Assembly: GCA_964457245.1 (NCBI GenBank)
Contig: CAYWET010000006.1
Coordinates: 21,098-85,097 of the forward strand
Direction: 5' to 3'
Source of the DNA: an uncultured Chryseobacterium sp.
GTDB taxonomy: Bacteria > Bacteroidota > Bacteroidia > UBA10329
Length of the DNA stretch: 64,000 nt
Under the pieces are notes generated by a model. The model saw nothing but the letters and a program-made list of their open reading frames with translations. It searched no databases and was not told the origin of the DNA. Below are positions 1 through 14,659 of this stretch, in pieces (position 1 is the first letter of the stretch; each line of letters opens with the position of its first letter). Made by a program: the position numbers and the translations under genes.

Positions 1-250
1 AACGAAATACAACAAAGTAATTATGTTTTTACTATCCCTATTTGTGATACAGTGTTAAAAATAACAATCGATTTTGTGGATGAAAAAATTAACAATCTTT
101 TTTTAATCGGGGTGTGGGACTTGTAAAAAATTTAATTTTTAAACGGCCTGTTGGGTTGCGGGTTCTTTTAATAAAAAAGTATCCGTTTTCGTGGTTCTTC
201 AGGTAAAGACCTCTATTCGTTGGCTTTTACTGAGCGGATGTTTGAGTTAG

Positions 251-284
251 AAACAAAAAAAACCGGAGCCATTAGGCTCCGGTT
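251..284 (-). terminator. Rho-independent terminator of the giant gene at 330..4937
   Basis: Perfect 10-bp inverted repeat aaccggagcc/ggctccggtt (261-270/275-284) with a 4-nt loop. On the minus strand it is followed by a run of 8-10 T (plus-strand A run 251-260). It lies 45 bp past the stop codon. Confidence 0.75.
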
Positions 285-329: not shown

Positions 330-3300
330 CTATTGTGCTCCAAGTTTGGATTTCAAACTCTCAATCTCCAACTGTTGTTTCTCCGTGGTTTCAATTAGCT
401 TACGGATGAGTTCTGAAAGTTCTTCGTCTTCGTGAGATTGAGCACTCGGAACCGAGGATGCAACGGGTTTTCCACTTTTCAGAGCTTCTATTTGTCGCTG
501 CTGTTCTTTCATGGCTTCCACCAAAATTGGAGTTACCTTACCGTAGTCCACGGTGAGTAGGTTTTCTCCATCAATTTGACCTACAACCTCGGGGAAAAGC
601 TTCTGTAGGTCTTGCGCAATGAACCCTAGGTGATTCTTGTTCTTTTCAGGGTTTTCTTCATTGTAAGGTGCGGTGCCTGGCTTAATGTCATACGTGTATG
701 CTTTCAATTGTAGTAACTTATCCAAAGCGGACGAGGAAGACAACGGCCTTAGATTTTCCTTGACTGCTAAATCAGAGAAATAGTAATATCCAGACACGGC
801 ATAGTGGTAATAAGCCCAAACCGAATACCAGTAATTCTGGAGACGTCCTATCTGGCCATGGTTAGCAGACTGGGTCCTGAGAGTGGTTCTACCATCATCG
901 TTGGAAACATAAAAGTCTTGCCCTGTTGGTAGGTCAACCCGAAGTCGGTCAATAATGTTGACCACATCTGCACCTGTGCCATTCGCATCTTCTGCATATA
1001 TGGTGTTCACGGTAAGGTTGTTTACATCCCACACATTATAGTCTTGTAAGCGGATGTCACGCCACATGGTAAGCCCAGCTTCGTTGAATTGCGCAGTTTG
1101 TGACTCACCGTTGTTCGCATAAATTCTTACACCACCATAATCGCCATGAGCAGAAAGCTTGATACCCGTATGGAAACGTATCATCAGGTCTGGATAGGGA
1201 TGTGACCAACCACCGGCTTCCTGATAGATTGCGTATGCGCGATCTACACCGTGCCAACCGATTCCAAGGTCTCCATGATTGGGAGTTACGTTTGGCTTGA
1301 CCATCATCCAGTTGTTGTTGAGGTTCAATGTGGTTGTTGCGGTGTGGTTACCAAGATTGTCACCATAACTTCCTACGTTTCCGGTGGTGATCAGTTCGGT
1401 CCAGCCAGTAGTTCCGCTTCCGTTGGTTTTTCTGAACCAAAGCCGTTGATCATAAAAGCTGCCAGCAATCTGCATAGCATAATTATTGCCCGAATTACTG
1501 TGTCGAGAGTCGATAAGGTGCCACCAACCAGATGATCCTGTTGGGTATCCTTCTCCAGCACTGGCAGAACTGGTTTCGTAGAATCCAGATAGAACACCGT
1601 CTGTGTTTCCATAAAGTGTGTTATTATCCCTTGTTTGGGTTCTGGAGCTGTTGTTACCATAGAAGAGGTTTCCTTCAAGCTCAAGGCCGAGGTTATTGGA
1701 TTGCCAATCGAAGAAATGGATTCTTCGGTTTGAGTATGGAAGACCAGCAATATTATAGTTCTGTGCCAAGCGCATTGTTCCTTCGGCCACCCCACCGTTA
1801 TGGAATGATATAGTAGCTCGGTTTCCGGTTGTACTTGTATTTTCTGCAATTGCCAGTGTGTAGTCTCCACCACTGCAACACTCAGTTGCTCCATCTCTGG
1901 TCAGTGTGGTTTGACCATGAACATCAAAAGTTGAACTAGGGTCCATGGTTCTTACCCCAACTCGCTTGTTAAGCCCATCCAACGTAAGAACTTGATCGGT
2001 CGCATTGATATTCGAGTGTGGATTTGTTCGTCCTCCAGTATTTGCATAGCCGAAGTCGAGGTAATGCATTCGGTTGCCCCAGTTACCTTGATTCACAACG
2101 AATTTTCTGTAGTCGGCTGCGTTACTCGGGTTATATGATGCAAATGTCAATGTACTGCCATGACTATTATTGGCCTGACTAGAGGCAATAACAACATCAC
2201 TGTAAGAAGAGGATACCACTAATTGTCCTCTACCATTGGCGGATCCTGGAGTTTCTATTCCTGTGAATAGGTTTTGACCACCACCTCCACCACTTTGGTG
2301 AATGTTGGTTCGACCCATTACGTGCAACATGGAGACAGGGGCGGTTGTGCCAATTCCCACATATCCTGTGTTCGCTTTAACACGGATTCTTTCATTTGTT
2401 CCATTGGCGTATAGTCTTAGATCCGCGCTTGCCCCACCAGAACTGTTGTAGTTCAAATACATACCGTCTTGATATGATGTGGAGTTATTCTGAATGACAC
2501 GAAGATTGCCATACACATCTGCACCTGAACCGAAAATTACATTGGTATTATCCAATCGGTAGGCATTCTCGACATTTGCAAGCCCATTGATCCAAAAATC
2601 TGCGGTTTGAGCCGAGCCGAACTGATTCCAGATGTATCCAGCGTCATTATTGGGAACATCAGTAGTAGGATACAGCGTTCCATTATTATCGGCCATAAGG
2701 ATACGATTACCACCGCCAGCAAGGCTTTCGACCTGAAGACCCGCAGACCCCGCAGTTCCCCCTCCCGCAGCGCGATACGTGTCGTTGATGACAACGTTCG
2801 ATCCGGCAGGAGGCGAAAGATGAATGTTCGCGTTGGCTGAGACCACCCTACCTTGAATCACCATGTCTCCCCAACCAGAACCTCCGATGGGGTAGGGGTC
2901 TGATGTGGAACCACAGTTTACACAATCAAAAAACAAGGAACCATTCAAGGTCATGTGACCACCATTGCTGATGGAAGCAACAGGAGTAGTTCCGTTAACA
3001 CCCCAGGTCCAACCACGATCACCTTGCGCATCGTTGTTCATGTTCATTTTGATGCTATAGTCTTGAACATCCCCGTACTGGTATTCCCCAGTGTTACCCA
3101 TAGAGATCTTGTAGTCGTTGCTACTCCAGAATCGAAGACCGTAGCCATTAGCGGCTCGCATATCGAGGTGGTTGATGTTATCAATCTCATTGTTGTTCAT
3201 GTTCAGAGTACCCGTGGCAGTATGATTACCAAGGTTATCGCCCATCCCGGTTCCGACCAGTGAAGAAAGATTTACAAGGTCCCCATCTGCATCAGAAATT

Positions 3301-4937
3301 ATCAGTTGGTTGGCACTCGAAAGTCCCGAAACGCGAATGCCACCTCCTAGGATGTCCAATTTTCGGCCAGGAGAGGTTGTTCCCACCCCAACATTACCCG
3401 AGTTGAGCGACATGACATGTGTGCTTCCTGACGTAACCGTATTGTACTGGGTTCCATCTGTCACATAAAAATCGATGGCGTTATTGGTTGAACCACCAGA
3501 GCTATTATGTCGAGTATGGATGAAATGTTGGAAGGCATCATCCCCATCATAACCGAAGGCTATCTGAGCTCCATTAGCAAAGGTGCTCTGACCATTTCCA
3601 CCTCTAAGTCCAAGAGTGGCTCGGGTATCTGTGTTAGACCCATTTACAACCAATTTGTTCTGAATGCCTGTGCTTAGACCGATTCCGACTTGCTGAGTAT
3701 TGTTGATACGCATGGCCTCACCACCTGCTGTTGAAAGCCTTATCTGGTCTTCGTCTGCAGTTGCTTCGACTTCTACTTTCGTGTCGCCATCATCATCAAC
3801 TAGAACTCTTCTCAACGGATCCAAATCAACTGTTTGAAGACCACCGGCATCGTCTTCCACCTGTAGTTGCAGGTCGGTTCCGCTCAAAGAAAATGTAGTA
3901 ATCGCTTGATCATCGGTATTATCAGCAAACTGTGACAGATCCAAGGTTTGATTGGCCTGTCCGTCATCTTCCAGCGAAATATTGAGGGTATTTCCCGAAA
4001 GGGAAAGTACATCGATAGTTTGGTCATCAGTATTATCGGCAAAACCGGAAAGGTCAATGGAGTGGGTGGCCTGTCCATCATTCTCCAAAGAAAGTTGTAG
4101 CGTGTTTCCACTCAGTTGAACCACATCGAACTGCTGCTCATCGGTATTGTCCTTGTACGGAGAAAGGTCGAGCACATGAGTGGCCTGGCCATCAGCCTCT
4201 AAAGAGAGTCGAAGTTCATCCGAAGTGATGTTAATTACATCGAACTGCTGGTCGTCCGTGTTGTCCATGAATTGCGATAGGTCCAAAGTTTGAGTAGCCT
4301 GTCCGTCATCTTCCAACGAGATGTTCATTGTATTTCCTGTCAGAGAAAGAACATCAATTGCCTGATCATCAGTATCCACGGCCAAACTGCTGAGGTCCAC
4401 GACATGTGTTGCAAGACCGTCATTCTGAAGAGACAGTTGCAGGTTAGTACCAACCAATTGTACCACATCGAACTGTTGTTCATCGGTGTTGTCCAAGTAA
4501 CCGGAGAGGTCGAGGACGTGGGTTGCTTGCCCGTCATTTGAGATTGAAAGCAGCAATTGGTTTGAACCGTTAATGGACACCTGATCGAACTGCTGGACGT
4601 CTGTATTGTCCAAGAAAGAACTCAGATCGATACTGTGTGTTGCCTGTCCGTCATTCTCGACAGATATTTCAAGGTCGGTTCCGTTGAGTTGAATGACATC
4701 TAACACCTGATCGTCTGTGTTTGCGTTGAGCGTTATCCACTGGGTTCCATCATGGAACTGGAAAGCAGTGCCGGTCCATCGCAATGAACCTGCTGATCCG
4801 GTTGTGGTGCTACCGACCTTGATGGCCCCGGCCACATCGAGTTTCTGTTGCGGAGCTGCTATATCTACGCCCACGTTCTGTGCGAATGAGACACTTAAAG
4901 AACCAGCAAATATTGTGAGTAAAAAGAGCTTTTTCAT
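330..4937 (-). CDS. Giant secreted tail-fibre-domain protein, 1535 aa. It has a signal peptide, 8 x 38-aa Asp-rich repeats, beta-rich VGIGTT-motif region and a C-terminal intramolecular-chaperone (peptidase S74-like) domain.
   Basis: Single uninterrupted ORF. N-terminus MKKLFLLTIFAGSLSVSFAQ is a signal peptide. The repeats have the form ...DLSxxxDNTDDQ. VGIGTTAPVSMLHV is a tail-fibre hallmark. The C-terminus FSDLAVKENLRPL...GFIAQDLQKLFPEVV matches the phage endosialidase/tail-spike chaperone motif (S-D-x-x-x-K-E-N-I/L) plus GFIAQ. Confidence 0.85.
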   Translation of the reverse strand: MKKLFLLTIFAGSLSVSFAQNVGVDIAAPQQKLDVAGAIKVGSTTTGSAGSLRWTGTAFQFHDGTQWITLNANTDDQVLDVIQLNGTDLEISVENDGQATHSIDLSSFLDNTDVQQFDQVSINGSNQLLLSISNDGQATHVLDLSGYLDNTDEQQFDVVQLVGTNLQLSLQNDGLATHVVDLSSLAVDTDDQAIDVLSLTGNTMNISLEDDGQATQTLDLSQFMDNTDDQQFDVINITSDELRLSLEADGQATHVLDLSPYKDNTDEQQFDVVQLSGNTLQLSLENDGQATHSIDLSGFADNTDDQTIDVLSLSGNTLNISLEDDGQANQTLDLSQFADNTDDQAITTFSLSGTDLQLQVEDDAGGLQTVDLDPLRRVLVDDDGDTKVEVEATADEDQIRLSTAGGEAMRINNTQQVGIGLSTGIQNKLVVNGSNTDTRATLGLRGGNGQSTFANGAQIAFGYDGDDAFQHFIHTRHNSSGGSTNNAIDFYVTDGTQYNTVTSGSTHVMSLNSGNVGVGTTSPGRKLDILGGGIRVSGLSSANQLIISDADGDLVNLSSLVGTGMGDNLGNHTATGTLNMNNNEIDNINHLDMRAANGYGLRFWSSNDYKISMGNTGEYQYGDVQDYSIKMNMNNDAQGDRGWTWGVNGTTPVASISNGGHMTLNGSLFFDCVNCGSTSDPYPIGGSGWGDMVIQGRVVSANANIHLSPPAGSNVVINDTYRAAGGGTAGSAGLQVESLAGGGNRILMADNNGTLYPTTDVPNNDAGYIWNQFGSAQTADFWINGLANVENAYRLDNTNVIFGSGADVYGNLRVIQNNSTSYQDGMYLNYNSSGGASADLRLYANGTNERIRVKANTGYVGIGTTAPVSMLHVMGRTNIHQSGGGGGQNLFTGIETPGSANGRGQLVVSSSYSDVVIASSQANNSHGSTLTFASYNPSNAADYRKFVVNQGNWGNRMHYLDFGYANTGGRTNPHSNINATDQVLTLDGLNKRVGVRTMDPSSTFDVHGQTTLTRDGATECCSGGDYTLAIAENTSTTGNRATISFHNGGVAEGTMRLAQNYNIAGLPYSNRRIHFFDWQSNNLGLELEGNLFYGNNSSRTQTRDNNTLYGNTDGVLSGFYETSSASAGEGYPTGSSGWWHLIDSRHSNSGNNYAMQIAGSFYDQRLWFRKTNGSGTTGWTELITTGNVGSYGDNLGNHTATTTLNLNNNWMMVKPNVTPNHGDLGIGWHGVDRAYAIYQEAGGWSHPYPDLMIRFHTGIKLSAHGDYGGVRIYANNGESQTAQFNEAGLTMWRDIRLQDYNVWDVNNLTVNTIYAEDANGTGADVVNIIDRLRVDLPTGQDFYVSNDDGRTTLRTQSANHGQIGRLQNYWYSVWAYYHYAVSGYYYFSDLAVKENLRPLSSSSALDKLLQLKAYTYDIKPGTAPYNEENPEKNKNHLGFIAQDLQKLFPEVVGQIDGENLLTVDYGKVTPILVEAMKEQQRQIEALKSGKPVASSVPSAQSHEDEELSELIRKLIETTEKQQLEIESLKSKLGAQ
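3794..4706 (-). repeat. In-frame tandem array of 8 x 114-bp (38-aa) Asp-rich repeats inside the giant gene
   Basis: Periodic protein motif [FIL]D[VL]xxLxGxxLxLSLExDGxATHxxDLSxYxDNTD(D/E)Q counted 8 times. Confidence 0.8.
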
Positions 4938-5361
4938 GGCATTTCAAACTAATGTTGAATATGCAAGATAGTGGTCGATTGTCACTTAGCTTACAAATCA
5001 ACCCTTGCTGTGAACGGATAAATGCCCAAAGTTTTAAGGTTCTCGCTGTGCCGAAATAAGCAGGTTTAGTCTAATGGTGATAAAAACTCGGAATCAGAAT
5101 TTCTCGCACTTATTTGAGTTTTGGTTTTGATACTGCCAAAATTTCGTAAAAATTCAGGGTGTTATTTTTAAGCGAGACCGAGCAGGGCCTTGATACAAGT
5201 ATAAGGTAATCACAAATTCCTAGCAATGTTTTTTAAGAGGCAAACTTCTTATGCGGTGGTAGTCATCGCCCATTTGGAGTTTAGGACAATTTATGCACAG
5301 GGTGGGCAACCAGAGCCCATTCACCCTGTGGTTATAAACCCAGAAGACGGCATTAAAAAAC

Positions 5362-8300
5362 TTATCTCCCTTCTTCCGCTGGAAATGAATTTTCTTCTTC
5401 AACCGGAGCCTCTAGCGGTGCTGGCGTAAGTGACGGTTTAGCGTCTTTTACAGAATCCTCAACAGGAATTTCCACGTTTTCCAAAGCATTTTCAGGAGGA
5501 AATACACCACCAGACCACGGAGCAGTAGGGTCTTCCATCGGCTCATAGAACTCATCACCTAATCGTTCAATTTCCTTCGGATGTTCTTTGGTTAACGCCT
5601 CATGTTCTGCTGTTTCCAACATGTCGACGAATCGTTCTGAGTATTTGTTGGATGCAAGTGCCTCTTCATCCTCTGGTATTCTGGCCATTGCAATCCAGCT
5701 GAACGGAACACTCTCTGACTCGGATTTATCTACAAAAAAACCGGTTTGATCGATATTGGATACCGAAGGGTTAAAATTACCGCTGCCACCCATGGCAGAA
5801 ACGGTGACCACCGGTTGAGCACCATTAAGTGACGCGATGAACTCTGGAGAGAACTCAACTCGAGCACGCTGTCCATCTATCACATCAACACCAAAATCCT
5901 TAATGTTTCTAAGCTGTTTTTCAATTGCTTGGAGCTCTTTTTTCAAAATCTTCAGAGCCCCAGTATTATATATCGAGAGTTCGCCATAGAGTACGCCTTT
6001 CTTGCCAGGCGTAGTTAAGGCGCCTGGAGTTTCCTCCGCTATAAAACCTACCTGAACAGCATCACTGAAGCCTTTTGTAGTTCCCTCATCCTTGTACTTG
6101 TAATAGTTTAGGTTGAGATCATCCATAAAAGCCCATGCGCTCTCGTAATCTTCGTTATCAAATGGATGGATGTTTTTTTTCTTGTCTCGGGTACTCAGAT
6201 AACCATAGGTGGTGGCATACACATAACCTTGCGCATAAACGGAGTAATTTGCACCAGAGAACTGTCCGTTCCAGTAACCGTTGGTGGCGCTGATGGAGTA
6301 TATAACCGTTTGGTTAGGGCAGTATGGGTGAAAAGCGTAGCTACCAGCAGTATTGTTGATGTGTACCGACTTGTTACCATAACTTCTTATCCATGTGCCG
6401 TCAGACATTTGCCAACCACCTCCGTACGAACCATTGTACCAGCCCGTACTGTTGTAGCTGCGATGCCATCCGGCACCATCGTCAATTACGGTCAGACCAT
6501 CAATTACGGAGCTTCCTGCAGCAACAATGGATACTGTACCAGGCTGTGCTGGATTGGCACTGTATCCGTTATTGTTCCAGTCAATGAAGATGGGGAAGTT
6601 AGCATCTCCACCATTACTTACGCTGGCAACGTCACTTCCGCTTCTTCTGAATCGGGCAATTTCCGATGAGTTATTACCAGAGGCAAAGTAGAATCTGTTA
6701 GAGTGATATTCTAATTTTCCTTCATCAGCGCCTGGGTTGCCCGTCCAAGACTCATTACCCTCTTCATCAAAATATAGGTTAGGAGAATATCCGTCATCGT
6801 TTCTTGTGCGAAGTTGCCATTGTCTGGCCGCATTCAGCCAACCCTGCCAGTCTGCGGTCCAGTGCATATAGCTTCTGGTACCAGTACTATTCATAAGAGC
6901 CAATCCACCAGAACCATTGCCCGTTCTGATGTTGATGTCGGAATTGTTTCGCGGATAAATGTGCCAACCGTTATTGCTCCAAAGAACACCGTCATTGTCG
7001 CTATGACGTTGCCAGTTGCTCAGGTAAAAATCGGTTACACCATTAACTACGTTGTTTTGCACGTTGAGGGTTGTGGTACCTAAGTGGTTACCTAGGTTGT
7101 CGCCAAGACCCGAACCATTCAGGTTGGCTACGGTATATAGATCTCCCGCAGCATTGGCCATGGTAATTCGGTTTCCGGAACCAGCCAGACCAGTAATTCT
7201 AACGGCATCGTTAAGCAAGAGGGTTCCGCCATCGTTGGCAATACCGGCCCTAGCATACATTTGATTCTGTGAATAGAACGTTCCTCCATTGTTGTACATA
7301 CCTGTTCGGAACTCTGTAAGCGTGGCACCTCCATTTCTGTATGATGCGATTTCCGGATAACTATCATTGAAGGTGACGCTCATGTGGTCATTAACATCCT
7401 GTGCATCTTCCATGTCAACACCTGCGGAGAACGCCAATGATGCGTAGCCATCATTACGATCATAAATACCACCATCGTCAGAAATGTGAATACCACCACC
7501 AGTTGCATTATTGTTTGATACTTTAAGTGACTTTTCAATCTGCATAGCACCCGCGGTGTTCAACGCGGCAACTGGCGTTACACCATAAACACCCCAAGTC
7601 CAGCCCCGTCCGGCTGTGTTACTCATGTGCATCTTAATGCTGTAATCGGTTACAGGCCCGAAATGATATTCTGAGCTGTTTCCCATTCCAATAGCGTACT
7701 GGTTATCTGACCAGAACCTAAGACCACGGCTAGTCCCAGGGGTAATGTCCAAATATCCGACATTGTCCAACTCGTTGTTACTCATGTTCAGATTGGTTGT
7801 GGCTGTATGGTTTCCGAGATTGTCTCCCATTCCAGAAGGCACGCTGGTGGCGCCAACGAGATTTCCAGAGTTGTCCGTTGTAACCAACCTTGTTCCGCCA
7901 CCAGTTAGACTTGAAATTCTGGTTGTTCCAACCACCTCCAATTGTTGATTCGGACTCAAAGTTCCGATTCCAACGTTGCCAGAATTCATTGACATGGCAT
8001 GAGTGCTACCACTCGTCACGGAGTTGTTCTGGGTTCCATCGCTTACATAGAAATCGATAGAATTGTTTGTTGAACCTCCAGAACTGTTATGACGTGTTTG
8101 AATGTAGTGCTCGTAGTCGTCAGCACCATTGTATCCAAAGGCAATCTGCGCACCATTATTGAAGGTGAATTGCTCGTTTCCACCAAGAAGGCCAAGAGTT
8201 GAAGAAACATCTGACGTGCTGCCATTAACAACCAATCGGTTACTGATACCAGAAGACAACCCAACACCCACTTGCTGGGAAGAGTTAATAATCATAGCCT

Positions 8301-9999
8301 CAGTTCCATCGGTGGTAAACCGAATCTGATCCTCATTCGGGTTTGCCTCAACCTCAACGCGTGTGTCTCCGTTGGCGTCTTTTAGAAGTCTTCTTAATGA
8401 TTCCAGATCTACGCTTTGGGCACCTCCAGCATCAGATTCAACCTGAACAGAAAGAGTTGTCCCGCTGAGAGAAAGGTTCGTAATTTTTTGGTCATCTGTA
8501 TTGTCCAAATAGCCGCTGAGATTGACTGATTGTGGGCCCACACCATCATTTTCGAACTCCATTGTGAGGGCATTCCCCGCTAATATCGCGAAGGTCTCGA
8601 TCTGTTGATCGTCTGTATTGTCCAGATATCCTGAAAGATCGAAGCTATGAGTTGCGGCACCATCGTTTTCCAGCGATAGCTGAAGGGTGTTTCCAGAAAG
8701 TTGAACCACGTCCAACGCTTGGTCATCAGTGTTGTCAAGGTAGCCGGAAAGGTCAATGCTGTGGGTTGCAACACCATCATTCTCCAACGATACTTGAAGT
8801 GTATTTCCAGAGAGTTGGATTACGTCAAGCCCTTGGTCGTCTGTGTTGTCTAGATATGGCGAAAGACTCAAAACGTGAGGCGCTACACCATCATTTTCTA
8901 TGGACAAACGCAAGTTATTGGAAGAAATGTCCACAAGGTCAAATGCTTGATCATCTGTGTTGTCTAGGTAACCGCTAAGATCCAAGGTGTGGGTGGCCTG
9001 ACCATCATCTTCAAGTGAGAGTCGCAATTCATCAGATGTAATGTTGATCACATCAAACGTTTGGTCATCTGTATTGTCCGAGAAACCGCTCAAATCAATG
9101 TTGTGAGTTGCCTGCCCATCATTCTCAAGGGATAACTGCAGGTTCGAACCCACAAGTTGACCAACATCCAGACCCTGTTCATCTGTGTTGTCCTTATAGG
9201 GTGAAAGGCTAAGAACATGCGTTGCCTGCCCGTCACCTTCAACCGAAAGGCGAAGCTGGTCTGACGTAATATTTGCAACGTCCAACTTCTGATCGTCCGT
9301 ATTGTCTGCAAGACTGCTGAGGTCAATTATCTCAGTAGCTACTCCATCATCCTCAAGGGACAATTCAAGATTGGTTCCATTAAGTTGAGCGACATCCAAT
9401 GTCTGATCATCGGTATCAGTACCAATACTACTAAGGTTAATAACATGAGTTCCAACACCATCGTTCTGCAACGAAAGCTCTAAGTTGGTTCCCGAGAGTT
9501 GAACCACATCAAGTTGCTGTTGATCCGTATTGTCGAGATAACCAGAGAGATCCAAAACATGAGTAGCCTGCCCGTCCCCCTCAATAGACAGTAACAGCTG
9601 ATTAGCACCATTGATGGTTACCTGATCGAACTTCTGGTCATCAACATTGTCAAGATATCCACTCAGGTCAATGGAGTGCGTGGGCACACCATCAGCCTCA
9701 ATTGAAATCTCGAGATCGGTTCCGTTCAATTGGATTACATCGAATATTTGGTCGTCAGAATTTGAGTTCAATACAATCCAAGAGGTGCCATCGTGGAACT
9801 GAAGTTCTGTTCCGGTCCAACGTATGGAGCCAGCAGAACCCGATGTGGTATTTGCGATTTTCACAGACCCATTAACATCTAACTTCTGTTCGGGAACAAG
9901 TCTGTCTAGACCCAAATTCTGTGCTGATAAACCACTGCTGAAGCAGAAAAGCACCGTTAGTATGAGATAAATTCGATTCATATCTATGATTTTTTGCAA
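5362..9999 (-). CDS. Giant secreted tail-fibre-domain protein paralogue, 1545 aa. It has 12 x 38-aa repeats, a C-terminal S74-like chaperone motif (STRDKKKNIHPF) and a further acidic/Pro-rich extension of roughly 250 aa.
   Basis: Single ORF. Signal peptide (start possibly at the internal Met, MNRIYLILTVLFCFSSGLSAQ). The repeat block is homologous to the neighbours. Middle and C-terminal regions align by eye along their length with the ORF at 10034..14659. Confidence 0.85.
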   Translation of the reverse strand: MQKIIDMNRIYLILTVLFCFSSGLSAQNLGLDRLVPEQKLDVNGSVKIANTTSGSAGSIRWTGTELQFHDGTSWIVLNSNSDDQIFDVIQLNGTDLEISIEADGVPTHSIDLSGYLDNVDDQKFDQVTINGANQLLLSIEGDGQATHVLDLSGYLDNTDQQQLDVVQLSGTNLELSLQNDGVGTHVINLSSIGTDTDDQTLDVAQLNGTNLELSLEDDGVATEIIDLSSLADNTDDQKLDVANITSDQLRLSVEGDGQATHVLSLSPYKDNTDEQGLDVGQLVGSNLQLSLENDGQATHNIDLSGFSDNTDDQTFDVINITSDELRLSLEDDGQATHTLDLSGYLDNTDDQAFDLVDISSNNLRLSIENDGVAPHVLSLSPYLDNTDDQGLDVIQLSGNTLQVSLENDGVATHSIDLSGYLDNTDDQALDVVQLSGNTLQLSLENDGAATHSFDLSGYLDNTDDQQIETFAILAGNALTMEFENDGVGPQSVNLSGYLDNTDDQKITNLSLSGTTLSVQVESDAGGAQSVDLESLRRLLKDANGDTRVEVEANPNEDQIRFTTDGTEAMIINSSQQVGVGLSSGISNRLVVNGSTSDVSSTLGLLGGNEQFTFNNGAQIAFGYNGADDYEHYIQTRHNSSGGSTNNSIDFYVSDGTQNNSVTSGSTHAMSMNSGNVGIGTLSPNQQLEVVGTTRISSLTGGGTRLVTTDNSGNLVGATSVPSGMGDNLGNHTATTNLNMSNNELDNVGYLDITPGTSRGLRFWSDNQYAIGMGNSSEYHFGPVTDYSIKMHMSNTAGRGWTWGVYGVTPVAALNTAGAMQIEKSLKVSNNNATGGGIHISDDGGIYDRNDGYASLAFSAGVDMEDAQDVNDHMSVTFNDSYPEIASYRNGGATLTEFRTGMYNNGGTFYSQNQMYARAGIANDGGTLLLNDAVRITGLAGSGNRITMANAAGDLYTVANLNGSGLGDNLGNHLGTTTLNVQNNVVNGVTDFYLSNWQRHSDNDGVLWSNNGWHIYPRNNSDINIRTGNGSGGLALMNSTGTRSYMHWTADWQGWLNAARQWQLRTRNDDGYSPNLYFDEEGNESWTGNPGADEGKLEYHSNRFYFASGNNSSEIARFRRSGSDVASVSNGGDANFPIFIDWNNNGYSANPAQPGTVSIVAAGSSVIDGLTVIDDGAGWHRSYNSTGWYNGSYGGGWQMSDGTWIRSYGNKSVHINNTAGSYAFHPYCPNQTVIYSISATNGYWNGQFSGANYSVYAQGYVYATTYGYLSTRDKKKNIHPFDNEDYESAWAFMDDLNLNYYKYKDEGTTKGFSDAVQVGFIAEETPGALTTPGKKGVLYGELSIYNTGALKILKKELQAIEKQLRNIKDFGVDVIDGQRARVEFSPEFIASLNGAQPVVTVSAMGGSGNFNPSVSNIDQTGFFVDKSESESVPFSWIAMARIPEDEEALASNKYSERFVDMLETAEHEALTKEHPKEIERLGDEFYEPMEDPTAPWSGGVFPPENALENVEIPVEDSVKDAKPSLTPAPLEAPVEEENSFPAEEGR
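8394..9747 (-). repeat. In-frame tandem array of 12 x 114-bp repeats in the second giant gene
   Basis: The same 38-aa unit counted 12 times. Confidence 0.8.
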
Positions 10000-10033
10000 G
10001 AGGTTTAAATCAATTGTTGTCGTTCAGTTCAAT

Positions 10034-13000
10034 TTACTTACGACCACTTTCAATATCCTTTTCTCTTGCCGGATATGGATCCATTTCTTCGTCTTTAACA
10101 GGAGGGTCCAACGGAATCGGCTCTAATGATGGACCAGCATCCTTTACCGAGTCGTCAACAGGAACTTCAGCCGACTCAAATGCATTGCTTGGAGGGAATT
10201 GCCCACCTTCCCAAGGGGCTGTTGGGTCTTCATGCTGCTCGTAGAACTCCGCAGGCATTGGCTCGATTTCTTCTGGGTGTTCTTTTGTTAGCGCCTCGTG
10301 CTCAGCCGTTTCCAGCATATGGACAAACCTTTCGGAGTATCCTTTGGCCTCCAAAGCATCTTCGGTTGGCACCTTCGCCATGGCAATCCAGTTAAATGGA
10401 ACAGAGCCTTCCTTGGTTTTATTGACGTAGAAACCTGACTGATCAACCTCAGTAACCAAGAGGTTAAATGTTCCGTTGCCACCCATAGCGGTTACCGTGA
10501 CCACAGGTTGAGCACCATTCAAGGTTGAAGTGAAATCTGAGGAGAATTCTACCCTAGTTCTTTCATTTTCGATTTGCTCCACACCAAAGTCGCTTACGCT
10601 ACGTAGTTGCTCTTTGATATTCTTCAATTTTTTCTTGATAACCTTTAGAGCCCCAGTGTTGTAAATCGCCAACTCCCCATAGCGAACCCCAGTTTTTCCG
10701 GGGGTTGTGAGCGCTCCAGGAGTTTCTTCAGCCATAAATCCAACGTGTACGGCATCGCTGAAGCCTTTAGTTGTCCCTTCATCCTTGTACTTATAGTAGT
10801 TCAGTTCAAGGTCATCCATAAAAGCCAAAGCGCTTTCGTAGTCTTCGTCCTCAAATGGTCTTATGTCTTTTTTCTTCTCACGGGTACTTAGGTATCCATA
10901 AGTAGTAGCATATACATACCCTTGCGCATAGACTGAATAGTTGGCCCCAGCAAAGTAACCGTTCCAGTAACTGTTGGTTCCACTGATGGAATAGATTACT
11001 GTATGGTTAGGACTGTAAGGGTGGAATGCATAATACCCGCTTCTGTTAATATGAACGGATTTATTCCCGTAAGAACGAATCCATGTGCCGTCAGACATGT
11101 GCCAACCACCACCGTAAGAACCATTGTACCATCCAGTACCACCGTAGCTTCGATGCCAACCACCACCATCATCAATAACGGTGTTTCCATCAATCATGAA
11201 ACCACCAGCAGTGTAGACTGAAGGGTTACTTGCTGGATTAAGATAGTAGCCTGTATTGTTCCAGTCTCTAAAGATTGTGAAGATTGCCTCACCACTGTTG
11301 GTTACTCTACCCACATCGCTACCACTTCTTCTAAACCGTGCAATTTCTGTTGAATTGCTACCAGAAGCGATGTAAAATCTATTAGAATGATACTCGATTT
11401 TTCCTTCATCCGCTCCTGGGTTACCTGTCCACGATTCATTGCCTTCCTCATCGAAGTAAAGGCTCGGAGAATAGCCATCCAGATTCTGGGTTCTCAACTG
11501 CCACTGGCGTGCGGAGTTCAACCAACCTTGGTATCCACTATACCAGTGCAAATAACCACGTGTACTTCCGCCATTCATTAGAGCCACGCCACCAGAAGTT
11601 CCATTACCCGTTCGAAGGTTCATGTCAGAACTGTTTCTTGGATAAATGTGCCAAGCGTTATTGCTCCAGTAAATACCATCATTGTCGCTATGACGCTCCC
11701 AGTTGCTCAAATAGAAATCCGTCACACCATTTATAACGTTATTCTGCATGTTGAGCGTAGTGGTTCCCAAATGGTTTCCAAGATTGTCGCCCAGTCCTGT
11801 TCCGTTCAGGCTGCTAGTTGTGTAAAGGTCGCCCGATGGGTTTGACATTACTATTCTGTTACCAGTTCCGGCCAGACCTGTAATTCTAACAGCGTCATTG
11901 AGAGTAAGCGTTCCCTGATCATTGGCGATTCCAGCTCTCGCATACATTTGATTTTGAGAGTAGAAAGTTCCACCATTATTAAATATCCCGGTTCTGAACT
12001 CCGTAAGAGTGGTACCGTTGTTTCGGTAAGACCATATTTCCGGGTAACTATCGTTGAATCGAACTTCCAAGTGATCGGTAGCATCTTGAGCATCTTCAAA
12101 ATCGACCCCAGCAGAAAACGCAAATGACCCGTAAGCATCATTTCTATCATAAATACCACCATCATCCGACAGAATCAATCCTCCTCCCGTGGTGTTATCG
12201 TTGGATACCCGCAAGGAACCTTGTATCTGCATTTCACCAGATGTATTGATTGCAGCAACAGGCGTTTGACCGTCAACACCCCAGGTCCAACCTCTGCCGG
12301 CAGTATTGCTCATATGAGATTTAATGCTGTAATCAGTAACCGGGCCGTAACGATATTCCGTAGCGTTCCCCATGGCTATTGCATAAGAATTACTTGACCA
12401 AAAGCGAATACCCCGTCCATTTCCAGGAGTTATATCCACATAACCAGCATTATCTATTTCGTTATTATTCATGTTAAGGTTGGTGGTAGCTGTGTGGTTT
12501 CCAAGGTTGTCACCCATCCCGGCTGGAACGCTTGTAGCCGCCACCAGGTCTCCTTGGTTGTTGGTGGTCACTAGTCGTGTTCCACCACCAGCTAAACTTG
12601 AAACACGAGTTGTTCCGATTACATGTAGTTCGGTTTGCGGGTCTGTTGTCCTAACCCCAACATTTCCAGCATTTAGAGATAGCACATGCGTTGATCCACT
12701 TGTTACGGAACTAGTTTGAGTGCCATCACTGACATAAAAGTCAATTGCGTTGTTTGCAGCGGCACTGTTGTGTCTCGTGTGAATAAAGTGCTGATATCCA
12801 TTGGTTCCGTTGTATCCGAAAGCAATCTGAGCCCCATTGTTAAACGTGGTCGAGCCATTACCACCGCGCAGTCCGAGAACGGATGTAGCGTCTGAACCGG
12901 TTCCATATACCGCAAGCTTGTTATTGATGCCGGTTGAAAGCCCGATTCCTACTTGCTGTGAGGGATTAATAATCATCGCACCAGCGCCATCGGTTGTGAA

Positions 13001-14659
13001 ACGAATCTGGTCTTCATTCGGGTTTGCCTCAACTTCAACTCGGGTGTCACCGTTGGCATCACGAATCAATCTTCTCAACGGATCTAAATCAACGTTTTGA
13101 GCACCACCCGCGTCAGACTCTAGTTGCATCGTTAATGTGGTCCCGGACAAAGAGAAATCAGTAATCGACTGGTCGTCTGTATTGTCAAGGTAGCCACTAA
13201 GGTCAACAGTTTGAGCTGCCTGCCCATCATCCTCTATTTCTAACGAAAGCGTGTTTCCTGACAGGGAGAAGTTGTCTATCGTTTGATTATCTGTGTTGTC
13301 CAAATAAGGGGAAAGGTCGATACTGTGAGTTCCTACCCCATCATTTTCAATAGAAAGTTGGAGTGTGTTTCCAGAAAGCTGAATCACGTCAAAAACCTGA
13401 TCATCGGTATTGTCTAGGTATCCTGAAAGGTCGATGCTATGTGTTCCTACCCCGTCATTTTCAATGGAAAATTGGAGTGTGTTTCCAGAAAGCTGGATTA
13501 CATCAAAAACCTGATCATCGGTATTATCCAAGTATGGACTAAGGTCTAAGATATGAGGGGCAACCCCATCATCTTCGATTGACAAACGAAGATTGTTAGA
13601 GTTAATATCGATAAGATCGAAGGCTTGGTCGTCCGTGTTATCCAAATATGGGCTCAGATCTAAAACATAAGAAGCTTGACCATCATCTTCCAATGAAAGT
13701 ACTAGTTGGTGAGAAGCATTGATGGTGATGACATCAAAAACCTGATCATCTGTATTGTCAACAAAACCGCTCATGTCAATCACATTAGTAGCAACACCAT
13801 CCCCTTCGATAGACAGCTCCAAGTTATTACCAACCAACTGAATTATATCGAAAATCTGATCATCCGTGTTATCGAGATATGGACTAAGGTCCAATACATG
13901 CGTAGCTTGGCCGTCATCCTCTAAAGACAGACGCAGTTCATTCGAAGTAATGTTAACCACGTCAAACTGCTGATCATCGGTATTGTCAGCCAAACTGCTA
14001 AGGTCAATCACTTCAGTGGCTACACCGTCATCTTCTAACGAAAGCTCCAGGTTTGTTCCATTGAGCTGTGCAACATCAAACGCTTGATCGTCCGTATCCA
14101 CAGCCAAACTGCTGAGGTCAATCACGTGAGTTCCAACCCCATCGTTTTGAAGTGATAGTTCCAAATTGGTTCCGTTCAATTGTACAACATCAAATTGCTG
14201 CTCATCTGTGTTGTCCAGGTAACCAGAGAGGTCAAGAACATGTGTAGCCTGACCATCATCTTCCAATGAGAGCAAAAGCTGGTTCGACCCGTTTATGGAA
14301 ACCTGATCAAAGGTTTGATCATCGGTGTTGTCCAAAAAACTACTTAGGTCGATGGTATGCGTGGCCTGGCCATCATTTTCAATGGAGATTTCGAGATCAT
14401 TCCCGTTAAGTTGGATGACATCTAGCACCTGATCATCCGTATTTGCATTCAGCGTAACCCACTGTGTGCCATCATGGAACTGGAATTCTGTTCCCGTCCA
14501 CCGTAAAGATCCGGCAACGCCATTGGTTGTGCTACCAATCCGAAGCGCACCGGCCACGTCTAATTTTTGTTGCGGAGAGGCAACATCGACACCAACATTT
14601 TGAGCGAATGTGAAGCCAGACGATAGAAGAAGAGAGACTGCTAGGTAAAAATGTTTCAT
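10034..14659 (-). CDS. Giant secreted tail-fibre-domain protein paralogue, 1541 aa. It has 12 x 38-aa repeats, an S74-like chaperone motif and a C-terminal extension.
   Basis: Single ORF. The N-terminal ~75 aa and the first repeats are near-identical to ORF 330..4937. The middle and C-terminus resemble ORF 5362..9999. Only 35 bp separate its stop from the start of the downstream paralogue, so the two are probably co-transcribed. Confidence 0.85.
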   Translation of the reverse strand: MKHFYLAVSLLLSSGFTFAQNVGVDVASPQQKLDVAGALRIGSTTNGVAGSLRWTGTEFQFHDGTQWVTLNANTDDQVLDVIQLNGNDLEISIENDGQATHTIDLSSFLDNTDDQTFDQVSINGSNQLLLSLEDDGQATHVLDLSGYLDNTDEQQFDVVQLNGTNLELSLQNDGVGTHVIDLSSLAVDTDDQAFDVAQLNGTNLELSLEDDGVATEVIDLSSLADNTDDQQFDVVNITSNELRLSLEDDGQATHVLDLSPYLDNTDDQIFDIIQLVGNNLELSIEGDGVATNVIDMSGFVDNTDDQVFDVITINASHQLVLSLEDDGQASYVLDLSPYLDNTDDQAFDLIDINSNNLRLSIEDDGVAPHILDLSPYLDNTDDQVFDVIQLSGNTLQFSIENDGVGTHSIDLSGYLDNTDDQVFDVIQLSGNTLQLSIENDGVGTHSIDLSPYLDNTDNQTIDNFSLSGNTLSLEIEDDGQAAQTVDLSGYLDNTDDQSITDFSLSGTTLTMQLESDAGGAQNVDLDPLRRLIRDANGDTRVEVEANPNEDQIRFTTDGAGAMIINPSQQVGIGLSTGINNKLAVYGTGSDATSVLGLRGGNGSTTFNNGAQIAFGYNGTNGYQHFIHTRHNSAAANNAIDFYVSDGTQTSSVTSGSTHVLSLNAGNVGVRTTDPQTELHVIGTTRVSSLAGGGTRLVTTNNQGDLVAATSVPAGMGDNLGNHTATTNLNMNNNEIDNAGYVDITPGNGRGIRFWSSNSYAIAMGNATEYRYGPVTDYSIKSHMSNTAGRGWTWGVDGQTPVAAINTSGEMQIQGSLRVSNDNTTGGGLILSDDGGIYDRNDAYGSFAFSAGVDFEDAQDATDHLEVRFNDSYPEIWSYRNNGTTLTEFRTGIFNNGGTFYSQNQMYARAGIANDQGTLTLNDAVRITGLAGTGNRIVMSNPSGDLYTTSSLNGTGLGDNLGNHLGTTTLNMQNNVINGVTDFYLSNWERHSDNDGIYWSNNAWHIYPRNSSDMNLRTGNGTSGGVALMNGGSTRGYLHWYSGYQGWLNSARQWQLRTQNLDGYSPSLYFDEEGNESWTGNPGADEGKIEYHSNRFYIASGSNSTEIARFRRSGSDVGRVTNSGEAIFTIFRDWNNTGYYLNPASNPSVYTAGGFMIDGNTVIDDGGGWHRSYGGTGWYNGSYGGGWHMSDGTWIRSYGNKSVHINRSGYYAFHPYSPNHTVIYSISGTNSYWNGYFAGANYSVYAQGYVYATTYGYLSTREKKKDIRPFEDEDYESALAFMDDLELNYYKYKDEGTTKGFSDAVHVGFMAEETPGALTTPGKTGVRYGELAIYNTGALKVIKKKLKNIKEQLRSVSDFGVEQIENERTRVEFSSDFTSTLNGAQPVVTVTAMGGNGTFNLLVTEVDQSGFYVNKTKEGSVPFNWIAMAKVPTEDALEAKGYSERFVHMLETAEHEALTKEHPEEIEPMPAEFYEQHEDPTAPWEGGQFPPSNAFESAEVPVDDSVKDAGPSLEPIPLDPPVKDEEMDPYPAREKDIESGRK
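13075..14428 (-). repeat. In-frame tandem array of 12 x 114-bp repeats in the third giant gene
   Basis: The same 38-aa unit counted 12 times. Confidence 0.8.

What the first reader, a model, noticed from the sequence alone, without database searches (positions are those of the whole stretch)
330..14659. Tandem triplet of ~4.6-kb paralogous genes for giant secreted tail-fibre-like proteins with mosaic (cassette-swapped) architecture
Three same-strand ORFs (1535/1545/1541 aa) share a near-identical signal peptide, N-terminal ~75 aa and repeat block. After the conserved region ...DYSIKM.M.N...GRGWTWGV.G.TPVA they split into two alternative middle-plus-C-terminal modules. The middle gene and the one upstream of it on the minus strand share one module. 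The downstream gene, which has its own upstream region and terminator, carries a different one. That gene resembles the middle one less than it resembles the third at the N-terminus. This is the pattern expected from recombination between paralogues, as in surface-variation or host-range cassette systems. Both C-terminal modules still end in an autoproteolytic chaperone domain. A ~14-kb investment in three huge secreted beta-rich proteins is exceptional for an otherwise housekeeping neighbourhood.
Basis: partly seen in the sequence, partly recalled or inferred. Interest (0 to 1): 0.7.

Follow-up and report, generated by a model that had tools for sequence, protein, structure and literature searches.

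The report
Tandem mosaic tail-fibre-like adhesin genes
A Bacteroidota chromosome carries a row of very large genes for exported proteins built like phage tail fibres, with a shared base and different tips. They resemble the recently described 'mosaic adhesive trimer' fibres of predatory bacteria, and the mixing of parts is ancient, not an active switching system.

Summary
Three minus-strand genes, A 330-4937, B 5362-9981/9999 and C 10034-14659, encode 1535-1541-aa paralogues. All three share the same base: an N-terminal domain, 8 or 12 copies of a 38-aa repeat, and a stalk. They diverge sharply just after GWTWGV..TPVA. B and C share one distal module; A has another.

Three details need correcting. 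The signal peptides are not near-identical. B and C do not end in the S74 chaperone: a helix, an H-type-lectin-like domain and an acidic tail follow it. The array probably has a fourth gene just beyond window position 1.

The proteins are Sec-exported and resemble phage tail fibres (PHROG tail-fibre families, Peptidase_S74 with the Ser/Lys pair intact). They sit in a conserved housekeeping locus. Related genomes hold 2, 3 or 5 such genes at the same site, and modules are swapped even between orthologues.

The paralogues are old. DNA identity is 60-76%, synonymous sites are near saturation, and the longest shared exact word is 15-20 nt. I found no inverted repeats, silent cassettes or recombinase. 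Evolutionary module shuffling is supported; programmed cassette variation is not.

The closest known kind is the MAT fibre superfamily of Bdellovibrio. These proteins differ from it in the N-terminal domain and in the non-terminal S74. The surface-adhesin function is inferred, not shown.

The parts
10034..14659 (-). Gene C, 1541 aa, first fibre gene of the array. Layout: signal peptide 1-19, N-domain 20-73, 12 x 38-aa repeats 74-530, stalk 531-795, distal module 796-1257, S74 Ser at 1258, C-terminal fragment 1258-1541.
5362..9981 (-). Gene B, 1539 aa from the ATG at 9981 (the ORF is open from TTG 9999). It is an old tandem duplicate of C with the same architecture: 12 repeats and the S74 Ser at 1263.
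330..4937 (-). Gene A, 1535 aa. It has the same base as B and C but 8 repeats, a different distal module (residues 648-1387) and a classical terminal S74 domain with the Ser at 1388.
4881..4937 (-). Signal peptide of A (MKKLFLLTIFAGSLSVSFA | QN...). The equivalents are 9922-9981 in B and 14603-14659 in C. All look like signal peptidase I sites with Gln at +1.
   Evidence: read from the sequence; no predictor was run
4719..4880 (-). Conserved 54-aa N-terminal domain of A (QNVGVD..QKLDVAG..GSLRWTG..FQFHDGTQW). The equivalents are 9760-9921 in B and 14441-14602 in C. I take it to be the cell-proximal anchor.
3807..4718 (-). Repeat block of A: 8 units of 38-39 aa (TDDQxFDVxQLxGxxLxLSLExDGxATHxxDLSxYLDN).
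8389..9759 (-). Repeat block of B: 12 units of 38-39 aa.
13070..14440 (-). Repeat block of C: 12 units of 38-39 aa.
2997..3806 (-). Shared stalk of A (residues 378-647, ending at GWTWGV). The equivalents are 7588-8388 in B and 12275-13069 in C. The A / B,C breakpoint lies just below it, near 2934 in A and 12212 in C.
   Evidence: (family D10)
777..2996 (-). Distal variable region of A (residues 648-1387). It is itself a mosaic. Residues ~761-1240 are replaced in the orthologue J_3. Residues ~840-1010 form a module found at 50-70% identity in more than 100 other fibre proteins. Residues 891-1185 are ~50% identical to a cyanophage S-TIM5/54 tail fibre.
10889..12274 (-). Distal module of C (residues 796-1257). 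The equivalent in B is 6196-7587. Homologues often carry Shufflon_N-type (PF04917) motifs. C residues 1044-1160 are 41% identical to the tail fibre of Synechococcus phage S-WAM2.
333..776 (-). C-terminal fragment of A: the S74 intramolecular chaperone / autoprotease domain (S1388-D-L-A-V-K1393) plus a coiled-coil tail, 148 aa in all. I predict it is cut off after trimer folding.
   Evidence: (PF13884, 55.8 bits against a cut-off of 22)
10037..10888 (-). C-terminal fragment of C, 284 aa: S74 domain (S1258-T-R-E-K-K1263), a long helix, an H-type-lectin-like beta-sandwich (10370-10591) and an acidic, proline-rich tail (10037-10369).
5365..6195 (-). C-terminal fragment of B, 277 aa, with the same layout as in C. 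The H-type-lectin-like domain is at 5677-5898 and the tail at 5365-5676.
261..284 (-). Intrinsic-terminator-like hairpin after gene A: 10-bp stem, 7 G-C pairs, then a T run. It is conserved in L003 after J_3.
1..260 (-). Start of the intergenic region that leads to a probable fourth fibre gene. That gene would be P0009, the orthologue of J_4, and would begin about 190 nt beyond the window edge.
   Evidence: inferred; the gene itself is outside the window
4938..5361 (-). B-A intergenic region: the separate upstream region of gene A. It holds a 9-bp-stem inverted repeat at 5296-5330 after the stop of B. The last ~20 nt before the ATG resemble those before other A-type genes.

Best explanation
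The locus is a chromosomal repertoire of Sec-exported fibres that are homologous to phage tail fibres and are probably trimeric. It has three genes in the window and probably four in all.

Each protein has four parts:
- a cleavable signal peptide;
- a small conserved N-terminal domain, which I infer holds the fibre on a cell-envelope element;
- a spacer of variable length made of 38-aa repeats, followed by a shared stalk;
- an exchangeable distal part that ends with a Peptidase_S74 intramolecular chaperone.

By analogy with endosialidase and T5 pb1, and with the Bdellovibrio MAT fibre Bd3182, the S74 domain should drive trimer folding. It should then cut itself off at the conserved Ser: S1388 in A, S1263 in B, S1258 in C.

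In B and C the released piece also carries a helix, an H-type-lectin-like domain and an acidic tail.

The different distal modules give the cell several binding specificities at once. The most likely use is adhesion to glycans or to other cells.

The mosaic arose over evolutionary time. Tandem duplication and illegitimate or short-homology recombination acted within a large module pool shared with other Bacteroidota fibres and with phage tail fibres. It is not a programmed switching device.

What is shown: gene structure, homology, breakpoints, age of the paralogues, and variation of the locus between genomes. What is inferred: trimerisation, autoproteolysis, surface display and adhesin function.
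For: - **Three paralogues with a sharp breakpoint:**
- **Tail-fibre homology:** PHROG tail-fibre families match both ends of A (phrog_5668 at 2e-24, phrog_9942 at 5e-20) and also C and P0009.
- **S74 domain:** PF13884 scores above its gathering cut-off in all three genes. The Ser-x4-Lys pair is conserved in A, B, C and their homologues.
- **Fold searches** (the models are low-confidence overall):
  - the A model hits the T4 gp34 fibre at E 1.6e-6, and Bdellovibrio Bd3182 / Bd2439 fibres weakly;
  - the C model hits H-type lectins, the Pam1 tailspike receptor-binding domain and pyocin fibres;
  - the C model also gives 45 BFVD matches at E <= 1e-3, mostly phage tail fibres and S74 proteins.
- **Post-S74 domain:** it is modelled at pLDDT 84-90. 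Three of 14 homologues of that segment hit Pfam H_lectin, best E 1.7e-4.
- **Chromosomal, not phage, context:** neighbours are housekeeping genes. The same flanks occur in L001, L003 and L018, with 3, 5 and 2 fibre genes respectively.
- **Mosaicism between orthologues and discordant segment trees:**
- **Modules shared with cyanophage tail fibres at 41-54% identity:**
- **Ancient paralogues:**
- **Functional precedent:** the Bdellovibrio MAT fibres have a signal peptide, a conserved N-domain, a trimeric fibre, and S74 or other tips. They are surface-displayed and bind glycans (PMC10769870).
Against: - No experiment bears on location or function.
- No outer-membrane export route is evident. There is no T9SS C-terminal domain, although the genome has T9SS cargo. 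There is no lipobox and no autotransporter barrel.
- Both AlphaFold monomer models were poor, with mean pLDDT 56.7 and 54.7. Trimeric fibre geometry is therefore not shown.
- The N-domain is 54 aa, not the ~130-aa MAT domain. It does not match the long N-domain of a Salinivirgaceae fibre.
- In B and C, placing a lectin-like domain in the piece that should be cleaved off is hard to square with a simple 'tip binds ligand' picture.
Confidence: 0.62

Rival explanations
1. The array is an active variation system. Recombination or gene conversion between the tandem copies reshuffles tips within a population, as in antigenic variation, shufflons or phage host-range cassettes.
For: - The architecture is mosaic and segment trees disagree.
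- Copy number differs between related genomes.
- One local patch of high DNA identity exists between two neighbouring copies in L003: a 62-nt exact match, with 89% nt identity over aa 241-280.
- Many homologues of the C-type module carry Shufflon_N-type motifs.
Against: - Within the window the longest exact match between copies is 15-20 nt and nucleotide identity is 60-76%.
- Synonymous sites are near saturation.
- All copies are complete, separately startable genes rather than silent cassettes.
- There are no inverted repeats, and no invertase, integrase or reverse transcriptase in the flanks I examined.
- Orthologues keep position and sequence across genomes. C~E_1 are 92-98% identical, and D~J_4 fall in one 90% cluster.
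- Two assemblies of the E genome are identical over the first 18.5 kb compared, which includes the three fibre genes.
Confidence: 0.06
2. The genes are leftover or working fibres of a prophage, tailocin or contractile injection system, not cell-surface proteins.
For: - PHROG tail-fibre families, the S74 domain and structural matches to phage and pyocin fibres all point to phage-type fibres.
- Some database homologues are labelled as phage or phycodnavirus proteins.
Against: - All copies have N-terminal signal peptides. Virion and tailocin fibres assemble in the cytoplasm and lack them.
- No capsid, sheath, tube, baseplate, terminase or integrase gene, and no tRNA, lies nearby.
- The flanking housekeeping genes are syntenic in four genomes, while only the number of fibre genes changes.
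- GC content is even across the region.
Confidence: 0.05
3. The proteins are released effectors rather than anchored adhesins. Examples would be soluble or vesicle-borne lectins or bacteriocin-like proteins, or polymorphic-toxin-style carriers whose cleaved C-terminal fragment is the active part.
For: - The S74 cut would free a 277-284-aa piece with an H-type-lectin-like domain in B and C.
- No anchoring device is recognisable.
- Tail-fibre repeats are known carriers in polymorphic toxin systems (PMC3482391).
Against: - No toxin domain or immunity gene was found.
- The most conserved part is the N-terminal domain (72-97% identity between A-, C- and D-type genes). That fits a common attachment point.
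- A's released piece is only the chaperone plus a coiled coil.
Confidence: 0.12
4. The fibres are specifically prey- or host-recognition fibres of a predatory or epibiotic Bacteroidota. This would be a direct functional equivalent of the Bdellovibrio MAT fibres, rather than general adhesins.
For: - Architecture, multiplicity and tip diversity are the same as in MAT fibres (PMC10769870).
- That paper lists MAT-like proteins in predatory FCB-group bacteria: Saprospiraceae, Salinivirga and Kordia.
- Relatives of this locus come from Saprospiraceae-, Cytophagales- and Flavobacteriales-type MAGs.
Against: - Nothing in the window indicates a predatory lifestyle.
- The organism is unidentified.
- The N-terminal module family is very widespread: 3362 cluster representatives at E <= 1e-3. 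That argues for a general function.
Confidence: 0.15

Closest known systems
MAT (mosaic adhesive trimer) fibre superfamily of Bdellovibrio bacteriovorus, S74 group such as Bd3182 (Caulton et al. 2024, Nat Microbiol, PMC10769870)
   Same: - Both are chromosomally encoded and carry a signal peptide.
- One end is conserved and the other diversified, with a long fibre related to phage tail fibres in between.
- Many copies occur per genome, some adjacent.
- Many members end in an S74 chaperone/protease with a Ser...Lys motif.
- The authors already list FCB-group examples.
   Different: - The N-terminal domain here is ~54 aa, not ~130 aa. It shows no similarity to the long N-domain of a Salinivirgaceae fibre.
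- The shaft contains a block of 8-12 acidic 38-aa repeats.
- B and C carry an extra helix, an H-type-lectin-like domain and an acidic tail after S74.
- The genes form one tandem array of 2-5 at a conserved site.
- Surface display is untested.
Phage tail fibres and tailspikes with a C-terminal intramolecular chaperone (K1F endosialidase, T5 pb1, GA-1 neck appendage; Pfam PF13884)
   Same: - The S74 domain with its catalytic pair is present.
- PHROG tail-fibre families match.
- Architecture is modular and mosaic, as is classic for tail-fibre genes.
- Modules are 41-54% identical to cyanophage fibres.
   Different: - These proteins have signal peptides.
- There is no phage context, and the genes sit in a stable housekeeping locus.
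- In B and C the S74 domain is not terminal.
Shufflon and invertible tail-fibre cassette systems (R64 PilV/Rci, Mu Gin, P1 Cin)
   Same: - A constant N-terminal part is joined to alternative C-terminal parts.
- Homologues of the C-type module are often tagged Shufflon_N, PF04917.
   Different: - There are no inverted crossover sites and no recombinase was found.
- There are no promoterless alternative segments; each variant is a full gene.
MYRF (eukaryotic myelin regulatory factor), which has an internal S74-type ICA domain. This comparison rests on my own knowledge; the MAT paper's supplement only mentions MYRF.
   Same: The S74-type domain is not at the C-terminus, and further domains lie downstream of the cleavage site, as in B and C.
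   Different: MYRF is a eukaryotic membrane-bound transcription factor. It is not a fibre and is not secreted.

Membership tests
Peptidase_S74 / intramolecular chaperone auto-processing domain (PF13884) | Profile match above the curated threshold | tested here: met
   A scores 55.8 bits, B 23.5 and C 25.3, against a cut-off of 22. B and C are only just above it.
Peptidase_S74 / intramolecular chaperone auto-processing domain (PF13884) | Catalytic Ser followed five residues later by Lys (SDxxxK-type motif) | tested here: met
   A has S1388-DLAV-K, B has S1263-TRDK-K and C has S1258-TREK-K. Ser and Lys are kept in homologues (input rows). The Asp at +1 is replaced by Thr in B and C.
Peptidase_S74 / intramolecular chaperone auto-processing domain (PF13884) | Domain forms the C-terminal end of the protein | tested here: not met
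   This holds for A only, where 148 aa follow and include the domain. In B and C, 277 / 284 residues follow the Ser, including a separately folded beta-sandwich.
Peptidase_S74 / intramolecular chaperone auto-processing domain (PF13884) | Autoproteolytic release after trimerisation | not testable with these tools
   Needs expression of C-terminal constructs and Ser-to-Ala mutants.
MAT fibre superfamily (Caulton et al. 2024) | N-terminal signal peptide | tested here: met
   Judged by reading the sequence. Each has a basic n-region, a hydrophobic core, small residues at -3/-1 and Gln at +1. No predictor was available.
MAT fibre superfamily (Caulton et al. 2024) | [quoted passage not shown] | tested here: inconclusive
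   Here a conserved domain of only 54 aa precedes the repeats. It does not align with the ~115-aa N-domain of the Salinivirgaceae fibre in L014; only the repeats align. No Bdellovibrio MAT N-domain sequence or structure was available for a direct comparison.
MAT fibre superfamily (Caulton et al. 2024) | Conserved base with diversified, mosaic distal end; several paralogues per genome | tested here: met
MAT fibre superfamily (Caulton et al. 2024) | Elongated homotrimer displayed on the cell surface | not testable with these tools
   Monomer models were poor, with pLDDT 55-57. Fold hits to fibre proteins are only suggestive.
Phage or tailocin virion tail fibre | Encoded within a phage, prophage or tailocin structural gene cluster | tested here: not met
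   Neighbours are housekeeping genes, and the flanks are syntenic in four genomes.
Shufflon / invertible cassette system | Inverted crossover repeats and a site-specific recombinase next to alternative C-terminal segments | tested here: not met
   No inverted repeats in 1-15000 at seed 12. No recombinase among the neighbours I examined.
Diversity-generating retroelement target | Near-identical template/variable repeat pair and a reverse transcriptase | tested here: not met
   No repeat pair above ~83% identity. No reverse transcriptase among the neighbours I examined.
Type IX secretion cargo | C-terminal sorting domain (Por_Secre_tail or type B CTD) | tested here: not met
   Pfam and NCBIfam find none in A, B or C. 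The same scan finds one in another gene of the window, 37342-39129.
Trimeric autotransporter adhesin | C-terminal YadA-type membrane anchor barrel | tested here: not met
   No such hit. Some distant homologues have YadA head repeats but also end in S74.
H-type lectin domain (PF09458), for the post-S74 domain of B and C | Profile or fold match to H-type lectins | tested here: inconclusive
   The window's own segment gives no Pfam hit. Three of 14 homologous segments hit H_lectin, best E 1.7e-4, and two hit Gp53-like_C. Foldseek's top PDB hits are SLL-2, Helix pomatia agglutinin and discoidin II (E 4e-3 to 0.2, TM to target 0.25-0.54). A BFVD 'H-type lectin domain' protein also matches. A profile search against PDB sequences found nothing.

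The most novel reading that the evidence does not exclude
A conserved chromosomal site in a Bacteroidota lineage acts as an expansion hotspot, building a repertoire of 2-5 Sec-exported tail-fibre-like fibres from modules traded with phage tail fibres. The B/C type would represent an undescribed S74 architecture. In it, autoproteolysis releases not just a chaperone but a chaperone-helix-lectin-like unit. That unit either stays on the fibre tip as a binding cap or works as a separate soluble lectin. These fibres would also use a short N-terminal anchor domain different from that of the Bdellovibrio MAT fibres, implying a different and unknown envelope docking and export route.
Probability: 0.25. 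Interest if true: 0.55.

Novelty: new variant of a known kind. Interest (0 to 1): 0.4.

Why it matters
If these are surface fibres, cell-encoded tail-fibre-like adhesin repertoires (the MAT concept) are not a speciality of Bdellovibrio. They would also be a widespread and expandable toolkit in Bacteroidota, which dominate particle and algal-surface colonisation. The N-terminal module family has 3362 cluster representatives.

The locus offers a clean natural series of 2, 3, about 4 and 5 genes at one site. That series could be used to study how tail-fibre modules move between phages and their hosts' own surface proteins.

The S74 domain followed by a lectin-like domain could extend what intramolecular chaperones are thought to release.

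None of this overturns current understanding. The mosaic nature of tail-fibre genes and the MAT family are already known.

Tried and rejected
- **Source contig:** The genome-contig scan did not return the source genome; the nearest relative is only 56% identical. The organism and the fourth gene's DNA therefore remain unseen.
- **PDB sequence searches:** searches with A and C found nothing. A profile of the post-S74 domain against PDB sequences gave only noise.
- **First alignment for structure prediction:** A1 misplaced the C-terminal fragments and I discarded it.
- **AlphaFold monomer models:** both had low overall confidence, pLDDT 56.7 and 54.7. I use only the local high-confidence domain and the general 'fibre-like' hits.
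- **Literature:** searches for S74 or tail-fibre proteins in Bacteroidetes found nothing specific. The MAT paper turned up through a fold hit.
- **PF26696:** this family tags many homologues in the precomputed tables but is absent from the local Pfam copy, so I could not name it.
- **Intergenic regions:** alignment across copies showed little conservation beyond the terminator and the ~20 nt before the start codons.
- **Promoter scan:** the sigma-70 consensus scan was no better than shuffled sequence, 27 sites against 26.7 expected, and it does not model Bacteroidota promoters.
- **Upstream OMP gene as partner:** I considered the upstream OMP_b-brl_2 gene as a dedicated partner and rejected the idea. 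It is adjacent in four syntenic genomes, but the whole region is syntenic there, and a more distant homologue (L019) lacks it.
Full report
**Observation.** The window holds three large minus-strand ORFs at 330-4937 (A, 1535 aa), 5362-9999 (B) and 10034-14659 (C, 1541 aa). B is 1545 aa from a TTG. It more likely starts at the ATG at 9981, giving 1539 aa, as in database protein P0015 and in the orthologues.

A three-way protein alignment gives these identities:

| Pair | First ~800 columns | Remaining columns |
|---|---|---|
| B~C | 60-95% | 60-95% |
| A~B, A~C | 55-90% | 5-25% |

The last DNA block common to A and C is 2934-3014 / 12212-12292.

A is closer to C than to B at the N-terminus: 90% against 78% over the first 200 aa, and 87% against 73% over 170 aa. 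C and B are ~50 nt apart. A has a 424-nt upstream region and a strong terminator-like hairpin at 284-261.

- The signal peptides are only 34-57% identical.
- B and C do not end in the chaperone domain (described under C-terminal ends).
- The array very probably continues beyond the window (described under Related genomes).

**Anatomy.** Coordinates are. Each protein has these parts, in order:
- a signal peptide of 19-20 residues ending ..SFA/LSA/TFA | QN;
- a conserved 54-aa N-domain;
- a block of 38-39-aa acidic repeats, 8 in A and 12 in B and C;
- a shared stalk of ~265 aa;
- a distal region of 460-740 aa;
- a Peptidase_S74 domain.

Gln at +1 is typical of Bacteroidota signal peptidase I substrates; this is from my own knowledge.

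The only Pfam family found in the three proteins is PF13884. A scores 55.8 bits, B 23.5 and C 25.3, against a cut-off of 22. NCBIfam finds nothing meaningful.

PHROGs places both ends of A, and parts of C and of the fourth paralogue, in tail-fibre families: phrog_5668 at 2e-24 and phrog_9942 at 5e-20.

**Are the copies exchanging DNA now?** No.
- Codon-aligned comparison shows 60-76% nucleotide identity between A, B and C, even where the proteins are ~90% identical.
- Only 30-50% of identical residues use the same codon, so synonymous sites are near saturation.
- The longest exact word shared by any two of the three genes is 15-20 nt.
- There are no inverted repeats. The best direct repeat is 83% over 131 nt, between neighbouring repeat units inside C.
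- Orthologues in other genomes are more alike than paralogues in this one. C~E_1 is 76-95% at the nucleotide level.
- The duplications therefore predate the split of these genomes. The conserved base is kept by selection on the protein, not by recent conversion.
- The one sign of local conversion is in another genome: J_3 and J_4 share a 62-nt exact tract and 89% nucleotide identity over residues 241-280.

**Related genomes.** Exact-protein look-ups of homologues returned syntenic loci:

| Locus | Source | Gene order |
|---|---|---|
| L001 / L002 | ENA | OMP_b-brl_2 - 1541 - 1541 - 1422 - HD - Usp |
| L003 | JGI | ...1541 - 1545 - 1381 - 1470 - 1341 - HD - Usp |
| L018 | Flavobacteriales MAG GCA_020635495.1 | M24 peptidase - aminotransferase - OMP - hydrolase - GAF - Big_5 - OMP_b-brl_2 - 930 - 1145 - HD - Usp |

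The upstream genes in L018 appear in the same order as in the window. One conserved chromosomal site thus holds 2, 3 or 5 fibre genes.

The window's own array likely has four. It falls in the same 90% cluster as J_4, the last gene in L003. Window 1-332 aligns with the J_3-J_4 intergenic region, including the identical terminator.

Orthology by both ends is C~E_1, B~E_2~J_1, A~E_3~J_3 and D~J_4, with J_2 as an extra gene.

**Mosaicism.** Comparisons with A along its length:

| Partner | Regions alike | Regions unrelated |
|---|---|---|
| J_3 | 1-760 and 1241-1535, 68-98% | 761-1240, 10-30% |
| E_3 | whole length | none, but three repeats fewer |
| P0004 | ~1-780 and ~1321-1480 | the rest |
| D (P0009) | 1-520, 75-98% | the distal part |

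Trees differ by segment:
- In the first 170 mature residues, A groups with the D-type genes. It is 97% identical to J_4, from another genome.
- In the stalk, A groups with E_3, J_3 and J_2, and the D-type genes are far away at 53%.

So there are at least four breakpoints, and modules have been exchanged on an evolutionary timescale. B against C is a plain old duplicate.

**Module pool.**
- The N-terminal 530 aa find 3362 cluster representatives at E <= 1e-3, and 793 at E <= 1e-10, among 1.84 billion proteins. The repeats often sit in the middle of other large proteins.
- A's residues ~840-1010 recur at 50-70% identity in more than 100 proteins with other contexts: collagen, Phage_fiber_2, and a protein annotated as PilV-type.
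- Homologues of the C-type module often carry PF04917 (Shufflon_N) together with S74.
- Parts of both distal regions are 41-54% identical to tail-fibre or virion proteins of cyanomyophages S-TIM5, S-TIM54 and S-WAM2.
- At least three kinds of N-terminal domain occur on proteins with the same repeats.

**C-terminal ends.**
- A has the classical layout: S1388-DLAV-K, an S74 domain and a coiled coil to the end.
- B and C have S-TR(D/E)K-K with Ser and Lys conserved, followed by 277 / 284 residues.
- The AlphaFold model of C 790-1541 is poor overall, with pLDDT 54.7. A helix and a six-stranded sandwich at model residues 538-641 (C 1327-1430) reach pLDDT 84-90.
- Foldseek's best PDB hits for that model are H-type lectins (SLL-2, Helix pomatia agglutinin, discoidin II), the Pam1 tailspike receptor-binding domain and R-pyocin fibres.
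- BFVD gives 45 hits at E <= 1e-3. They are mostly phage tail fibres or S74 proteins, and they include an 'H-type lectin domain' protein.
- Scanning only this segment from 14 homologues, three hit Pfam H_lectin (best E 1.7e-4) and two hit Gp53-like_C.
- The assignment is reasonable but not firm. The window's own segment has no Pfam hit, and a profile search of PDB sequences failed.
- The model of A 681-1260 has pLDDT 56.7. It matched the T4 gp34 fibre at E 1.6e-6, and Bdellovibrio Bd3182 / Bd2439 fibres weakly.

**Context and export.**
- Neighbours are ordinary chromosomal genes: succinate dehydrogenase, IleRS, aminopeptidase P, TPR histidine kinases.
- There is no tRNA and GC content is even.
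- The genome encodes T9SS cargo (37342-39129), but A, B and C lack any T9SS C-terminal domain, lipobox or autotransporter barrel.
- How they would cross the outer membrane is unknown. By my reading of the MAT paper, the export route of the Bdellovibrio fibres is not established either; I did not check this point specifically.

**Closest known.** The MAT superfamily (PMC10769870) is defined by four features: a signal peptide, a conserved ~130-aa beta-rich N-domain, a trimeric fibre and diversified tips.
- 13 of the 21 Bdellovibrio members end in S74 with SDxxxK.
- Self-cleavage at S782 of Bd3182, surface display and glycan binding were shown experimentally.
- The paper's supplementary table lists FCB-group members.

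This locus works like an S74-group MAT repertoire. Formal membership is open, because the N-domain here is only 54 aa and I could not compare it with a Bdellovibrio one. It does not resemble the long N-domain of a Salinivirgaceae fibre. No follow-up work on such fibres in Bacteroidota was found.

**Verdict.** The finding is real, and its 'mosaic paralogues' reading is right in the evolutionary sense. The 'cassette variation system' reading is not supported.

It is a new variant of a known kind (MAT-like, tail-fibre-derived cell fibres). Three features are new:
- a tandem array that expands and contracts at a fixed chromosomal site;
- a short, distinct N-domain;
- a non-terminal S74 followed by a lectin-like domain.

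Function is inferred. I rate interest at about 0.4.

Noticed in passing
window 37342-39129 (-): A 595-aa protein with a Por_Secre_tail sorting domain. The organism therefore has type IX secretion cargo, yet the three fibre proteins lack that domain.
   Followed up: partly
window 19547-21400 (+): A 617-aa ORF with no Pfam match sits between the aminotransferase and the OMP_b-brl/DUF6089 gene. In the syntenic locus L018 those two genes are directly adjacent, so this looks like an insertion in the window's lineage.
   Followed up: no
window 44592-47018 and 46978-48942 (+): Two adjacent, slightly overlapping genes both encode a TPR-repeat plus His_kinase/HATPase_c sensor protein. This looks like a second tandem paralogue pair in the window.
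   Followed up: no
window 41911-44520 (+): An 869-aa protein combines Big_5, two Lamin Tail Domains and an FlgD-Ig-like domain. It is probably another surface protein.
   Followed up: no
L003 10001-14413 and 14916-18941: Neighbouring fibre genes J_3 and J_4 share a 62-nt exact tract and 89% nucleotide identity over residues 241-280, inside the repeat block. This is the only clear sign of recent local gene conversion in any of the arrays.
   Followed up: partly
window ~1905-2420 (A residues ~840-1010): A ~170-aa module (..HQSGxGGGQNxFxG..SSxYSDLVIASSQAN..HGSTLTFAxYNP..YRKFVINQGNWG..NPH..) is conserved at 50-70% identity in more than 100 otherwise different fibre proteins. One of them is annotated as PilV in the cyanobacterium Moorena. 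The conservation is unusually strong for a fibre segment.
   Followed up: partly
L014 4965-8075: A Salinivirgaceae fibre has a different, long N-domain (FKYQAILRD...), the same 38-aa-type repeats, YadA-head-like NTTG repeats and a terminal S74. N-domains, shafts and tips all seem to recombine in this protein superfamily.
   Followed up: partly
window 1391-1894 (-) and 6166-6669 (+): 167-aa ORFs lie wholly inside genes A and B in other frames. They are almost certainly spurious.
   Followed up: no
window 14839-15630 (-): An OMP_b-brl_2 outer-membrane barrel gene (263 aa) lies directly upstream of the array in the window, L001/L002 and L018, but not next to the more distant homologue in L019. 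The adjacency may be mere synteny, or the protein may be an envelope partner.
   Followed up: partly
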